In this document: piece by piece, positions 15,395-18,353 of the stretch
Layout of the letters: the number at the start of each line of letters is the position of its first letter
Position numbering within the stretch: the stretch's first letter is position 1
Source of the DNA: a virus
Direction: 5' to 3' (one strand)
Length of the DNA: 43,548 nucleotides
Virus record (IMG/VR): IMGVR_UViG_3300042731_008280
Program-made: the position numbers and the translations under genes
Notes under the pieces: model-generated
Told to the model about the DNA's origin: nothing
Database searches by the model: none
The model's input: only the letters and a program-made list of their open reading frames with translations

Positions 15395-15649
15395 TTATGC
15401 GTTCTCTTTAGATTGTTTCCTAAGGTATTCCCTAACCCATTCCATTACATCAATACCTTCAGTAAGAAGCTTAGCTTCCTCTATTGCTACATCACTATCG
15501 TTTACTCCATAACCTTCAAGTATTTGAAATACTTGATCAACATCGTTTCCAGGTTTCAGTTGTATAAGTCTTTCTGCGCAGCCGATTGTATAACCACATC
15601 CAACGCCACTTTGCTTAAGCCACAAATAAGTAGGCATATTATTTTCCAT
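15395..15649 (-). CDS. Small protein, 84 aa, last gene of the radical SAM operon.
   Basis: ATG overlaps the end of the upstream rSAM gene by 11 nt. GVGCGYTIGCAE segment. Confidence 0.5.
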   Translation of the reverse strand: MENNMPTYLWLKQSGVGCGYTIGCAERLIQLKPGNDVDQVFQILEGYGVNDSDVAIEEAKLLTEGIDVMEWVREYLRKQSKENA

Positions 15650-16271
15650 TTTCTAAAAATTTAGTTGTTACAGTATTATCTGGCATATAATAAATGTTAT
15701 AATCACCTTTGTCGAGATGAAAAATGTCAGGATACTTTCTCCGAACTTGATAGTATCTATTCCCATCTGGATAACCAACAAGTTGCTTTATTGTAAACTG
15801 ACAGTTAAACCTGTTTGAAAAATTAATATAATCTTCAATCATTTCATCCGTTGTTCTCTGTGTAACAACATGGACGATTCTTAGTTGAGTAAATTTCCTC
15901 ACATACTTAAAATATTGTTCATCATCTTTCAAACTATCCGAAGATACTACACATTTATTAACTGCTTTCCAAAAGATAGGATTAAGAAACACCTCTCTAG
16001 AGTGCACATCAATTTTTATTCCAAGAGAGCCACAGATATAAAATAGCTTTTTCCACCAGTTTTCGTACACATAAAAGTTATACAGGCAGTCCCCTCCACC
16101 GGACACTGATACCTTACCTTTATACTTATATTCTTGTAAAAAAGAGATTAGTTTTGTCCAATCTATTTCAAGCTGGACATTCTTTAGTGGATGGTTTTTC
16201 CAAATACAATACCAACAATTTTGTCTACATCCAAAATTGGTAATAATTGAAATATTTGATTCCATGTTCAT
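15639..16271 (-). CDS. Small radical SAM protein (QueE/NrdG-activase-like). Start refined to the ATGA-coupled MNMESN.
   Basis: FGCRQNCWYC (CxxxCxxC) and VSVSGGGD resemble the QueE AGCDYSCSWCD and ISGGNP motifs. Confidence 0.6.
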   Translation of the reverse strand: MNMESNISIITNFGCRQNCWYCIWKNHPLKNVQLEIDWTKLISFLQEYKYKGKVSVSGGGDCLYNFYVYENWWKKLFYICGSLGIKIDVHSREVFLNPIFWKAVNKCVVSSDSLKDDEQYFKYVRKFTQLRIVHVVTQRTTDEMIEDYINFSNRFNCQFTIKQLVGYPDGNRYYQVRRKYPDIFHLDKGDYNIYYMPDNTVTTKFLENGK

Positions 16272-17248
16272 TCCATAAATATATGAGCAAGTTGTCCGCA
16301 ACAAAGACCTGCCTCTTCGCATTTTGCAATGGCATCAATAACAACCGGAATATTATTATCTCTAAATTGAGCTTCTAGGGCTTCAAGGTCTTCATAATTC
16401 TCATAGTTAGCCAAAGTCCGTAGATTATTCTCTCGGGATTTTATAGTATTGTTTAACGGAATAAGTTTTACTGTAAACCTTTGAGAATTTAATCCAAGTT
16501 TCATAAGATAATTTACATCGACAGGAATACCTTTCATTACTATAAAGTTGAGAGTTACAGTTCGATTTGTAATGGGGAGTGGGGAGTTGTTAATAAGACT
16601 TACAATTTCAGGAAGAGTTAGTACATCTGCTCCACCAAACAATTCTTTTCTTTTTTGTTCATCTGTGCTGTTACAACTTATTTGTAAATGTAAGAAGCCA
16701 TTATATATTTTTTCCTTTGTTCTAATCACTTTGTCTATTACTTCAAACCCAGAATTCCCTTCAGTAGTTTTACGTGGAAGGATGGAGTTGAAACATGGAA
16801 GCCAATTATAGTGAGAGTATAAATTAGGTAAAGACTCAATTGCAAGAAGAACATTGTTCAAATTGTGTGCTGGTTCTCCCATACGGGCAAAACCAATCTT
16901 GGTCTTAGATGATTGTTTGACATATGGAGTAGATTTTAAGACAAAGTCTACTTGTTCTAATATTTCTTCTCTTGTTAGATTCCCATTAAATTTTAGATCG
17001 GCTACATCACAAAACTTACAGTTATGAACACAACCCTTTTGCGTAGAAACAGTAAGCAGCCATTTCTCTTGGTATGGTTTAAGATGTCTCCAAATAATGT
17101 GGGGGTCTTGTGTGTTGCGTACCTCATAATGTTGCTTACCTTGCACAGACACATCTCGCATTTCAGTACACTCAATAGGATACCCATCGTCTGTTTCAAG
17201 AAGAAAGATGCGACCGCTTGATAGATAGAATGAGTTTTTAAATTTCAT
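16268..17248 (-). CDS. RlmN/Cfr-family radical SAM RNA methyltransferase.
   Basis: STQKGCVHNCKFCDV...NLTREEILEQV parallels the RlmN block SSQVGCALECKFCST...NLRVSEIIGQV. ARMGEPAHNLNNV parallels MGMGEPLLNLNNV. The C-terminal CCGQL parallels ACGQL. Confidence 0.85.
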   Translation of the reverse strand: MKFKNSFYLSSGRIFLLETDDGYPIECTEMRDVSVQGKQHYEVRNTQDPHIIWRHLKPYQEKWLLTVSTQKGCVHNCKFCDVADLKFNGNLTREEILEQVDFVLKSTPYVKQSSKTKIGFARMGEPAHNLNNVLLAIESLPNLYSHYNWLPCFNSILPRKTTEGNSGFEVIDKVIRTKEKIYNGFLHLQISCNSTDEQKRKELFGGADVLTLPEIVSLINNSPLPITNRTVTLNFIVMKGIPVDVNYLMKLGLNSQRFTVKLIPLNNTIKSRENNLRTLANYENYEDLEALEAQFRDNNIPVVIDAIAKCEEAGLCCGQLAHIFME

Positions 17249-17304
17249 GCTGTAATTTCCATTTCATTGCATGCAAGACAGACTAACTAACACGGCTTCT
17301 TTTT

Positions 17305-18171
17305 TCATTTATATATCTCTTTCATCGGACATTTATTAAAATCGCAAAACTTACTTGATTCTGTAATATTTGCAAGTATGCCTTTCCAGGTAGTAGCAGG
17401 TCCTGTATCTGATTGTTTAATATAAGGACATCCTGAAACACTCCCATCTGGCCATACTGTGAACTTTGAAATATTAGCAGAGCAAGTAGTATTATGCCAG
17501 TCTTTTTTCCAGTTGTTATAGTCTATATAGCAGATATCTCTGATGTGTTTTATATCTTTGCGCGGTGCAGAAAAAACTATGGCTGGGTCCTCTGCTCTTT
17601 TTGACTTATCTACTATATAATAAATACTACTTATAATACCTTCAGCACTTTCGTCTAACCTTTCTGATGTTCCAAGTCTACAGTTCCAACCAATCTCAAT
17701 GTTTTTATTTAACGCGCGCAGGTCTTGAATAATACCTATTTCTTCTTCTGATATATTAGAAAAGTAAATACTATCTGCTAAGGCAAACCATTCGGTAGTT
17801 AATGGCTTATATTTTTTTATTGTCGTTGGATTGTGTAAAGTGAGATGAATCTTTGTGTTCTTTCTTGAGTTCCAACCATCTACATATTTAATACAAGCTA
17901 AAATGGTTTCTATGGTTTTAATATCTTCTTCTTTTGTTGGCTCATTGACCGAAATAGATATTTGGTTAACAGAATAGCTTTTATTATGGATATTTAGAAA
18001 CCCACTAAGTAGTTCCCATAATCCTAGGCTTGTTAATAGTAACTGTTTTCCTTTCTGTTTATGCGCTTTCAAATAACATCCTTGACAGTTCTTTGCGCAG
18101 TTCCAGGTTGACTCTATAATCAGACTATCTATATAGACTTCATTTTCTGTGATTCTAAAGATTTGATTCAT
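17305..18171 (-). CDS. Radical SAM protein, 288 aa, subfamily unknown.
   Basis: WNCAKNCQGCY matches CxxxCxxC. Extra C-terminal cysteines are present. The ATG overlaps the upstream stop as ATGA. Confidence 0.7.
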   Translation of the reverse strand: MNQIFRITENEVYIDSLIIESTWNCAKNCQGCYLKAHKQKGKQLLLTSLGLWELLSGFLNIHNKSYSVNQISISVNEPTKEEDIKTIETILACIKYVDGWNSRKNTKIHLTLHNPTTIKKYKPLTTEWFALADSIYFSNISEEEIGIIQDLRALNKNIEIGWNCRLGTSERLDESAEGIISSIYYIVDKSKRAEDPAIVFSAPRKDIKHIRDICYIDYNNWKKDWHNTTCSANISKFTVWPDGSVSGCPYIKQSDTGPATTWKGILANITESSKFCDFNKCPMKEIYK

Positions 18172-18353
18172 CTATCTGCTTCATCTTCTATTTTTATCTG
18201 CTCAATAAAATAATCTCTCAGCTCTTTAGTAAAATCATAGTCGGCAACTCTTAAATCTATTCTTCTGATTAAGTCTACAATGTCTTCTCGCCTATTACGT
18301 GATACTATTTCATCAACAATATCCATTATATCTACATCTATATTAATATTCAT
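18168..18353 (-). CDS. Small acidic protein, 61 aa, first gene of the rSAM operon.
   Basis: D/E-rich; translationally coupled to the rSAM gene. Confidence 0.4.
   Translation of the reverse strand: MNINIDVDIMDIVDEIVSRNRREDIVDLIRRIDLRVADYDFTKELRDYFIEQIKIEDEADR

What the first reader, a model, noticed from the sequence alone, without database searches (positions are those of the whole stretch)
15395..18353. Translationally coupled operon of three radical SAM enzymes including an RlmN/Cfr homolog
The gene order is: acidic 61-aa protein, rSAM (288 aa), RlmN/Cfr-family rSAM methyltransferase (326 aa), QueE/NrdG-like small rSAM (211 aa), then an 84-aa protein. The junctions use ATGA overlaps. The RlmN match is strong: GCVHNCKFC, MGEPAHNLNNV, and CCGQL as the second catalytic Cys. 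RlmN/Cfr enzymes methylate C2/C8 of adenosine in rRNA and tRNA. Coupling one to two further rSAM enzymes in a mobile, tRNA-rich, RNA-repair-rich element suggests a multi-step RNA (or DNA) base hypermodification pathway. It could protect against defence nucleases or alter translation. The small 84-aa protein (GVGCGYTIGCAE) could be a partner or carrier.
Basis: partly seen in the sequence, partly recalled or inferred. Interest (0 to 1): 0.75.

Follow-up and report, generated by a model that had tools for sequence, protein, structure and literature searches.

The report
Conserved phage pair of radical SAM enzymes
The three neighbouring radical SAM genes are real, but only two of them (a divergent RlmN/Cfr-like methylase and a minimal 210-aa partner) form a gene pair conserved across many uncultured phages, and what that pair acts on is unknown.

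Summary
All five ORFs are present on the minus strand, and all three larger proteins carry CxxxCxxC. The middle one (326 aa) is a real but distant RlmN/Cfr homologue: 72.7 bits against a cut-off of 290. It keeps the methyl-carrying Cys (CCGQL). It lacks the canonical resolving Cys (Thr66 instead) and the N-terminal RNA-binding domain.

The "three-enzyme operon" is not a conserved unit. The 326-aa and 210-aa genes are adjacent in 77 of 83 related loci found from p326, and in 66 of 80 found from p210. The 288-aa, 61-aa and 84-aa genes were found only on this phage's own contig.

The 288-aa enzyme has a SPASM/twitch-type fold (closest to SuiB, PqqE and SkfB). In related huge phages it sits beside DUF5658/DUF2997 genes and without the pair.

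The 210-aa protein is a minimal radical SAM core, not specifically QueE or NrdG. In several lineages it is fused to, or adjacent to, an NMNAT-like adenylyltransferase. HIT, Nudix or HAD genes lie alongside in some loci.

I favour an adenine nucleotide or dinucleotide as substrate over RNA, with low confidence. No cultured phage carries the pair, and I found no literature on it.

The parts
16268..17248 (-). p326: divergent RlmN/Cfr-type (class A) radical SAM enzyme. It is core member 1 of the conserved pair. The cluster Cys are C73/C77/C80 and the putative methyl-carrying Cys is C317 in CCGQL. Thr66 occupies the position of E. coli RlmN C118. C152 and C316 are further family-wide Cys.
   Evidence: - NCBIfam TIGR00048: E=2.6e-20, 72.7 bits against a cut-off of 290, model positions 73-342 of 355.
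- phrog_24834, 'unknown function', E=4e-36.
- 514 database homologues; the top 120 are 59-100% identical.
- Invariant columns.
- PDB profile alignment to RlmN C118A structures.
- Alignment with a Ramlibacter protein taken here as a bona fide RlmN and with distant phage homologues.
15639..16271 (-). p210: minimal radical SAM core protein. It is core member 2 of the conserved pair and is ATGA-coupled to p326. Its motifs are NFGCxxxCWYCIWKxH, SGGGD, DVHxRE and GDYNxYYMPDN.
   Evidence: - phrog_17662, 'unknown function', E=2.7e-13.
- Alignment A2.
- AF2 model with pLDDT 84.
- 294 representatives among 1.84 billion proteins.
- Adjacent to p326 in 77 of 83 loci and in 66 of 80 loci.
- Fusions to an NMNAT-like domain.
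17305..18171 (-). p288: radical SAM enzyme with a C-terminal twitch/SPASM-like Cys domain. The invariant Cys are C214, C230, C248 and C281, with the motif C-x12-G-x4-C. It belongs to a separate module and is not part of the conserved pair.
   Evidence: - Only 24 homologues in 5.8 billion clusters.
- Alignment A3.
- AF2 model with pLDDT 84.
- Its homologues sit next to DUF2997/DUF5658 and without p326 or p210.
18168..18353 (-). p61: acidic 61-aa protein with no Cys. It is ATGA-coupled to p113 upstream and to p288 downstream. It was found only on this phage's contig.
   Evidence: There were no tblastn hits in any other locus and no family hit.
15395..15649 (-). p84: acidic 84-aa protein with two Cys (C18, C24). 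It overlaps the end of p210 by 11 nt. It is not conserved next to the pair elsewhere.
   Evidence: It is absent from other loci. The only hit is weak: 34% identity, E=5e-3, in LR756501/LR756503.
18652..19008 (-). p118: DUF5658-like membrane protein. It is the syntenic partner of p288 in related huge phages.
   Evidence: It is 90% identical to the DUF5658 protein directly upstream of the p288 homologue in L079. Pfam PF18902: E=0.0018, below the cut-off.
18350..18691 (-). p113: basic 113-aa hydrophobic protein lying between p118 and p61. It is ATGA-coupled to p61.
   Evidence: No family hit.

Best explanation
Two unrelated modules abut in this huge-phage genome.

**Module A (p326 + p210, 17248..15639).**
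- It is a two-gene radical SAM unit, conserved and found mainly in phages. This is shown.
- p326 most likely uses RlmN/Cfr-type chemistry. One SAM would methylate Cys317 of the CCGQL loop. A second SAM would give the 5'-deoxyadenosyl radical, which turns that methyl into a methylene radical. The radical would then add to an sp2 carbon of an adenine ring. This is inferred from homology.
- The canonical resolving Cys is replaced by Thr or Ala. Release of the product must therefore use another residue. The family-wide C316 and C152 are candidates. This is inferred.
- p210 is a minimal radical SAM enzyme that performs a second radical step on the same substrate. This is inferred from the obligate pairing.
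- I favour a free adenine nucleotide or dinucleotide (NAD-type or another adenylylated metabolite) as substrate, rather than an RNA polymer. p210 is repeatedly fused or adjacent to an NMNAT-like adenylyltransferase. HIT, Nudix or HAD genes lie next to or inside the pair in some lineages. p326 also lacks the RNA-binding N-terminal domain of RlmN. This is inferred with low confidence.

**Module B (p118-p113-p61-p288, 19008..17305).**
- p288 is a SPASM/twitch-type radical SAM enzyme.
- It travels with DUF5658/DUF2997 genes in related phages and acts independently of module A.
- Its fold class suggests a peptide, protein or small-molecule substrate, which remains unidentified.
For: **Pair conservation.**
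- tblastn found p210 next to p326 in almost all 78 loci, in either order and on the same strand. p288, p61 and p84 appeared only in L004/L005, the window's own contig.
- An HMM scan found p210 within 8 kb in 77 of 83 p326-family loci. Three of the six exceptions are cut at the relevant end.
- The reciprocal scan, starting from p210 in metagenomes, found p326 adjacent in 66 of 80 loci. Most of the remaining loci are truncated within about 750 bp of p210.
- Neighbours other than the pair vary freely.

**Phage restriction.**
- Only 9 hits occurred in one genome for each of 185,579 species. Eight are MAG contigs and one is an isolate scaffold.
- No cultured phage in the 50,697 phage records carries p210.

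**RlmN-type chemistry.**
- TIGR00048 and Cfr models match over nearly the full length.
- CCGQL aligns with the AACGQL of a Ramlibacter protein taken here as a bona fide RlmN.

**Missing resolving Cys.**

**Nucleotide link.**
- PF01467 (NMNAT-like)-p210 fusions: P0173, the L085 and L028 ORFs, P0272/P0290/P0374, N-terminally truncated forms P0270 and P0316, and L133.
- These fusions span p210 profile scores from 232 down to 77 bits.
- A separate NMNAT-like gene lies directly upstream of p210-p326 in L088/L089, with Nudix directly after p326 in L089.
- HIT lies directly upstream of p326 in L085.
- A HAD-like gene lies between p210 and p326 in 36 loci.

**Module B.**
Against: - The only characterised relatives of p326 (RlmN and Cfr) act on rRNA and tRNA, so the prior favours RNA.
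- The NMNAT-like association covers only a few percent of the family: 3 fusions and 2 adjacencies among about 165 loci, plus 4 further database clusters. In phages, adjacency is weak evidence. Fusions are stronger but could be mis-called genes.
- The window itself encodes no NMNAT-like gene. Its context is rich in tRNA and RNA-repair genes.
- In other loci, DNA methyltransferases, topoisomerase and SSB are the neighbours.
- No coordinates were available from the AF2 models, so I could not test whether C152 or C316 lies near the active site.
- p326 itself was not modelled.
Confidence: 0.4

Rival explanations
1. RNA modification. p326 methylates C2 or C8 of an adenosine in phage or host tRNA (A37) or 23S rRNA, as RlmN and Cfr do. 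p210 adds a second modification to the same RNA or helps p326. The effect would be on decoding, or on protecting tRNA and ribosomes during infection.
For: - Homology is to RlmN/Cfr only.
- The window carries 4 tRNAs, all with A37. It also carries two RNA ligases, Thg1 and peptidyl-tRNA hydrolase.
- RtcB is nearby in L009/L010/L016.
- A pseudouridine synthase lies near the module in L088.
- A more distant phage RlmN-like gene in Stenotrophomonas phage ANB28 lies inside a tRNA cluster.
Against: - The N-terminal domain of RlmN is absent, and the canonical resolving Cys is replaced.
- The pair's neighbours are not consistently RNA-related.
- The NMNAT-like fusions and the HIT, Nudix and HAD neighbours point to small nucleotides.
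- A37 is a common feature of tRNAs (general knowledge), so it does not discriminate.
- The ANB28 homologue belongs to a different subfamily that keeps both Cys and has no p210.
Confidence: 0.3
2. DNA base modification. The pair C-methylates or otherwise hypermodifies adenine in phage DNA, or in a dNTP precursor, to evade restriction enzymes.
For: - N6/N4 DNA methyltransferase genes lie within 4 kb of the pair in 7 loci.
- Topoisomerase, an SNF2 helicase and SSB flank it in L006.
- An intein is inserted in a p326 homologue. From general knowledge, not tested here, phage inteins usually sit in genes of DNA metabolism.
Against: - To my knowledge no C-methyladenine DNA modification has been described, and the literature searches returned none.
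- No dATP-exclusion or nucleotide-kinase genes are consistently linked to the pair.
- The neighbourhoods are mosaic.
Confidence: 0.1
3. All three radical SAM enzymes, plus p61 and p84, form one multi-step hypermodification pathway, with the small proteins acting as carriers.
For: The genes are physically contiguous on one strand in this window. ATGA coupling occurs at p61/p288 and at p326/p210.
Against: - p288, p61 and p84 are absent from every other pair-carrying locus.
- p288 homologues occur without the pair.
- A 56-nt spacer separates p288 from p326.
- p61 has no Cys and is not conserved.
Confidence: 0.05

Closest known systems
RlmN (dual-specificity 23S rRNA A2503 / tRNA A37 C2-methyltransferase; class A radical SAM methylase)
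   Same: - It shares the radical SAM core with CxxxCxxC.
- It shares the MGEP motif.
- It shares the C-terminal CGQL loop that carries the methyl-Cys.
- The HMM match runs nearly full length.
   Different: - It scores 72.7 bits against the 290-bit cut-off.
- Thr66 (Ala in the 40%-identity clade) replaces the resolving Cys118.
- A Cys-Cys doublet is present at the methyl-Cys site, and C152 is an additional family-wide Cys.
- About 70 N-terminal model positions, the RNA-binding domain, are absent.
- It always has a second radical SAM partner gene.
- It is found mainly in phages.
Cfr (23S rRNA A2503 C8-methyltransferase)
   Same: It has the same class A architecture and Cys loop. NCBIfam Cfr models match at E=2e-13 to 2e-11.
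   Different: - It scores 44-50 bits against cut-offs of 468-550.
- The same missing features apply as for RlmN.
- There is no evidence of a link to antibiotic resistance.
Other phage RlmN-like proteins (Stenotrophomonas phage ANB28, Bacteroides phage Versailles, Moorella phage MTATph1, Pectobacterium phage Arno18, crAss-like Kehishuvirus tikkala)
   Same: They are distant homologues at 23-33% identity, also phage-encoded and uncharacterised.
   Different: - No p210 partner lies within the 4-5 kb flanks fetched.
- ANB28 keeps both catalytic Cys.
- Several of the others lack the C-terminal CGQL segment in the called ORF.
SPASM/twitch radical SAM maturases (SuiB, PqqE, SkfB, anSME), relevant to p288 only
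   Different: - It has only four invariant extra Cys, which is twitch-like rather than the 7-Cys SPASM motif.
- There is no Pfam SPASM hit.
- No recognisable precursor peptide is conserved next to it.
- Its partners are DUF5658/DUF2997.

Membership tests
RlmN/Cfr class A radical SAM methylases (p326) | CxxxCxxC motif binding the radical SAM [4Fe-4S] cluster | tested here: met
   C73/C77/C80 in GCVHNCKFC. These are invariant across 22 homologues.
RlmN/Cfr class A radical SAM methylases (p326) | C-terminal methyl-carrying Cys (E. coli RlmN C355) in a CGQL loop | tested here: met
   C317 in GLCCGQLA aligns with AACGQLA of a Ramlibacter protein taken here as a bona fide RlmN. It is invariant. Actual methylation was not tested.
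RlmN/Cfr class A radical SAM methylases (p326) | Resolving Cys seven residues before the cluster motif (E. coli RlmN C118, Cfr C105) | tested here: not met
   The position is Thr66 (LLTVSTQKGC), invariant in the close clade, and Ala in the 40%-identity clade. The Ramlibacter RlmN and phage ANB28 have Cys there.
RlmN/Cfr class A radical SAM methylases (p326) | N-terminal accessory (RNA-binding) domain | tested here: not met
   The TIGR00048 alignment starts at model position 73 of 355, at protein residue 30. That this region is the RNA-binding domain rests on my own knowledge of the RlmN structures.
RlmN/Cfr class A radical SAM methylases (p326) | Score above the curated family cut-off (equivalog) | tested here: not met
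   72.7 bits against 290 for RlmN. 44-50 bits against 468-550 for Cfr.
RlmN/Cfr class A radical SAM methylases (p326) | Methylation of adenosine C2/C8 in rRNA or tRNA | not testable with these tools
   This needs biochemistry.
QueE / NrdG-type small radical SAM (p210) | Specific sequence or structural similarity to QueE or to the anaerobic RNR activase | tested here: not met
   - NrdG2 TIGR02495 scores 15.4 bits against a cut-off of 131, and there is no QueE hit.
- The PDB profile search found no significant match.
Radical SAM superfamily (p210) | CxxxCxxC motif plus partial TIM-barrel core | tested here: met
SPASM/twitch-domain radical SAM enzymes (p288) | Radical SAM core plus a C-terminal Cys-rich auxiliary-cluster domain | tested here: inconclusive
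   - Four invariant extra Cys are present, with a C-x12-G-x4-C motif.
- The best folds are SuiB, PqqE, SkfB and TigE.
- There is no Pfam SPASM hit, and the full 7-Cys SPASM motif is absent.
   p288 is absent from all other pair-carrying loci. p288 homologues lack the pair. The p326+p210 pair alone is conserved.

The most novel reading that the evidence does not exclude
The p326-p210 pair would be the first class A (RlmN/Cfr-type) radical SAM system that works on a small molecule. It would build a C-methylated, further-modified adenine nucleotide or NAD-like dinucleotide. In some lineages an NMNAT-like domain would complete the product. Phages would use this product to resist or subvert host defences that deplete NAD+ or target nucleotides. 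The missing resolving Cys would mean a variant mechanism of product release, possibly involving the partner enzyme.
Probability: 0.2. Interest if true: 0.85.

Novelty: new variant of a known kind. Interest (0 to 1): 0.6.

Why it matters
To my knowledge, class A radical SAM methylases are known only as single-protein RNA methylases: RlmN in housekeeping, Cfr in multidrug resistance. This family differs in three ways. It has lost the residue thought essential for releasing the product. It has lost the RNA-binding domain. It has gained an obligate second radical SAM partner.

The family is large and strongly conserved. It has at least 514 clusters, of which the 120 best are 59-100% identical to p326. 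It is found mainly in phages.

Working out its substrate would extend the known chemistry of this enzyme class. It could also reveal a new phage-made nucleotide, RNA mark or DNA mark. For annotation, these genes should not be called "23S rRNA (adenine2503-C2)-methyltransferase", as JGI does now.

Tried and rejected
**Searches that found nothing useful.**
- DNA-level search of the region against phage records gave no match.
- tblastn of p210 and p288 against 50,697 phage records gave one weak metagenomic hit and none, respectively. No cultured phage is therefore available as a model.
- PADLOC gave no defence-system match for any of the five proteins.
- A PDB sequence-profile search with p210 found nothing significant.
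- A BFVD fold search with p210 gave only generic phage radical SAM proteins, with TM about 0.5-0.6.
- The AFDB50 library was not available.
- Five literature searches found no description of this pair, nor of a phage RlmN-like enzyme with a known substrate.
- The promoter/terminator scan was uninformative: counts equalled the shuffled expectation, and the host's promoter type is not known.

**Ideas considered and rejected.**
- *p61 as a RiPP precursor for p288.* It has no Cys and is not conserved beside other p288 genes.
- *p84 as a carrier.* It is not conserved.
- *QueD/QueE-type 7-deazaguanine pathway.* A PTPS gene follows the pair in only one phage (two loci of the same sequence, L006/L017), and p210 is not QueE-like.
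- *C310 as the relocated resolving Cys.* It is not conserved in the 40%-identity clade.

**Not done.** The models give no coordinates, so Cys geometry could not be checked.
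Full report
**1. What is in the sequence**

The region 15395-18353 carries five co-oriented ORFs on the minus strand:
- p61 (18353..18168)
- p288 (18171..17305)
- p326 (17248..16268)
- p210 (16271..15639; 210 aa, not 211)
- p84 (15649..15395)

I read the junctions directly.
- ATGA overlaps occur at p61/p288 and p326/p210.
- A further ATGA overlap lies at the upstream p113/p61 junction.
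- p288 and p326 are separated by a 56-nt spacer.
- p210 and p84 overlap by 11 nt.

p61 is acidic (pI 4.3) and has no Cys.

The window belongs to a huge phage.
- Its 833-aa major-vault-protein-like gene matches only the 462-735 kb uncultured phage records LR756500-LR756503, at about 41% identity.
- It carries 4 tRNAs.
- It encodes two RNA ligases, a Thg1-like protein, peptidyl-tRNA hydrolase and a fourth radical SAM gene. An RNase_T-domain gene is annotated on the source contig.

**2. The three radical SAM proteins**

*p326* is a real but distant RlmN/Cfr relative.
- TIGR00048 matches at E=2.6e-20, 72.7 bits against a cut-off of 290, over model positions 73-342 of 355. Cfr models score 44-50 bits against cut-offs of 468-550.
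- Its PHROG family, phrog_24834, has no known function.
- A profile of 22 homologues matches RlmN and Cfr crystal-structure sequences at E of 1e-9 to 1e-11.
- I aligned it with a Ramlibacter protein taken here as a bona fide RlmN. The C-terminal CCGQL corresponds to AACGQL, so C317 is the equivalent of the methyl-carrying Cys355.
- The resolving Cys118 position is Thr66. It is invariant in the close clade and is Ala in a 40%-identity clade.
- Extra Cys conserved across the family are C152 (WLPCFNS) and C316. C310 is not conserved in the distant clade.
- About 70 N-terminal model positions of RlmN are absent.

*p210* has an invariant CxxxCxxC at residues 15-22 and an SGGGD(P/C) motif.
- The AF2 model has pLDDT 84.
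- NrdG2 scores only 15 bits against a cut-off of 131.
- It is therefore a minimal radical SAM core, not a QueE or NrdG orthologue.

*p288* has CxxxCxxC at residues 25-32.
- It has four further invariant Cys (C214, C230, C248, C281) with a C-x12-G-x4-C signature.
- Its AF2 model (pLDDT 84) best matches SPASM/twitch maturases: SuiB 13.7, PqqE 13.5, SkfB 13.2, TigE 13.1.

**3. Conservation**

p326 has 514 homologous clusters. The best 120 are 59-100% identical and lie on contigs of up to 306 kb.

- I fetched 78 loci: annotated phage records, contigs encoding p326 homologues, and IMG/VR viral contigs. tblastn found p210 next to p326 in nearly all of them, in either order and on the same strand. 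p288, p61 and p84 were found only on the window's own contig.
- An HMM scan gives p210 within 8 kb in 77 of 83 p326-family loci. Three exceptions have full flanks (L031, L069, L070) and three are cut at the relevant end.
- The reciprocal scan started from p210 in metagenome contigs. It found p326 adjacent in 66 of 80 loci. Most of the other 14 are truncated within about 750 bp of p210.
- All other neighbours vary.
- Distant phage RlmN-like genes (33% identity or less: Moorella MTATph1, Bacteroides Versailles, Vibrio D479, Pectobacterium Arno18, crAss-like tikkala, Stenotrophomonas ANB28) have no p210.
- Only 9 hits occur among one genome each of 185,579 species. Eight are MAG contigs and one is an isolate scaffold.

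p288 is rare, with 24 homologues.
- In three other huge-phage contigs it lies beside DUF2997 and DUF5658 genes and without the pair.
- The window's p118 (18652-19008) is 90% identical to the DUF5658 protein next to the p288 homologue in L079.

The "three-enzyme operon" is therefore a juxtaposition of two modules.

**4. Clues to the function of the pair**

p210 is repeatedly fused at its N-terminus to a cytidylyltransferase-fold domain (PF01467).
- Its best NCBIfam matches are NMNAT/NadM-type adenylyltransferases, though below the cut-offs.
- Fused forms: P0173, the L028 and L085 ORFs, P0272, P0290 and P0374, N-terminally truncated forms P0270 and P0316, and L133.
- These fusions span p210 divergence from 232 down to 77 bits against the family profile.

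Three contigs have cellular-looking neighbours such as peptide deformylase, a GlmS-like protein (assigned by eye from the sequence, not scanned) and a pseudouridine synthase. In these, the module is flanked by nucleotide-handling genes.
- HIT-p326-NMNAT::p210 in L085.
- NMNAT-like-p210-p326 in L088.
- NMNAT-like-p210-p326-Nudix in L089.

In 36 loci of the 40%-identity clade, a HAD-type phosphatase-like gene (phrog_1238) sits between p210 and p326.

These associations cover only a few percent of the family, apart from the HAD gene in one clade. They do all point the same way, towards small adenine-containing nucleotides.

Evidence in other directions:
- The characterised relatives act on RNA, and the window is rich in tRNA and RNA-repair genes.
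- DNA methyltransferases are near the pair in 7 loci.

**5. Interpretation**

*Shown:*
- a conserved two-gene radical SAM module found mainly in phages;
- a separate SPASM/twitch module;
- p326 is not an RlmN or Cfr orthologue.

*Inferred:*
- p326 performs methyl-Cys-mediated radical methylation of an adenine ring, with a relocated resolving residue;
- p210 performs a second radical step on the same substrate;
- the substrate is more likely a nucleotide or dinucleotide (about 0.4) than RNA (about 0.3) or DNA (about 0.1).

I found no literature on this pair. No cultured phage in the collection carries it. PADLOC has no match.

**6. Verdict**

- The pair is a new variant of a known kind and a worthwhile experimental target.
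- Interest: 0.6.

Noticed in passing
window 2533-5034 (-): An 833-aa protein has Major Vault Protein shoulder and repeat domains (PF11978 at E=3e-22, PF17795). Its only relatives among phage records are in the 462-735 kb uncultured huge phages LR756500, LR756501 and LR756503, at about 41% identity.
   Followed up: partly
window 9772-10869 (-): A fourth radical SAM protein of 365 aa (phrog_7293, unknown function). It gives weak matches to SPASM-type maturases and to prokaryotic viperin models (pVip, E=1e-6). It is conserved on the related contig L005.
   Followed up: partly
window 19350-19426 (-): A tRNA gene with an 8-nt anticodon loop (AC-GGTC-AA), which ARAGORN calls tRNA-??? with a 4-base anticodon. 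Rfam tRNA scores 52.7 bits. It has no encoded CCA. It could be a frameshift-suppressor-like or Asp-like tRNA.
   Followed up: partly
L032 6735-8789 (IMG/VR contig of 394 kb): A p326 homologue is interrupted by an intein of about 350 aa carrying LAGLIDADG-type motifs. The intein is inserted exactly at the third Cys of the CxxxCxxC cluster motif (…GCPHNCQF|CLVPGS…VANHN|CDVAPL…).
   Followed up: partly
window 19842-21158 (-) and 14784-15311 (-): Three tandem paralogous MORN-repeat proteins (158, 127 and 128 aa) share near-identical C-termini. A fourth MORN-like protein (175 aa) lies just downstream of p84.
   Followed up: no
window 37341-38159, 28794-29879, 39413-40279, 1246-1866 (all -): The window encodes a Thg1-like tRNA-His guanylyltransferase, a T4 Rnl1-type RNA ligase, a second RNA ligase and a peptidyl-tRNA hydrolase. 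This is a dense set of tRNA repair and translation genes.
   Followed up: no
L001 (Moorella phage MTATph1) 4974-5936: The distant RlmN-like gene is annotated as two ORFs (274 aa and 40 aa). A single tblastn alignment nevertheless spans query residues 9-326 across the gap between them. This suggests a frameshift, a stop read-through or a sequencing error.
   Followed up: no
L083 (Kehishuvirus tikkala), L009/L010/L016: SPFH/Band-7 (prohibitin-like) genes recur near RlmN-like genes in unrelated phages. In two Xanthomonadaceae phages (BUCTxx99 and JGB6) the feature under the RlmN-like match is itself annotated 'prohibitin family protein'.
   Followed up: no
L079-L081 (contigs carrying p288 homologues): The p288 family sits in a conserved block: AAA ATPase (about 528-609 aa), DUF2997, DUF5658 (missing in L081), then p288. 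Cpn10 is also present in L079 and L080, and RecA in L080 and L081. The function of this block is unknown.
   Followed up: partly
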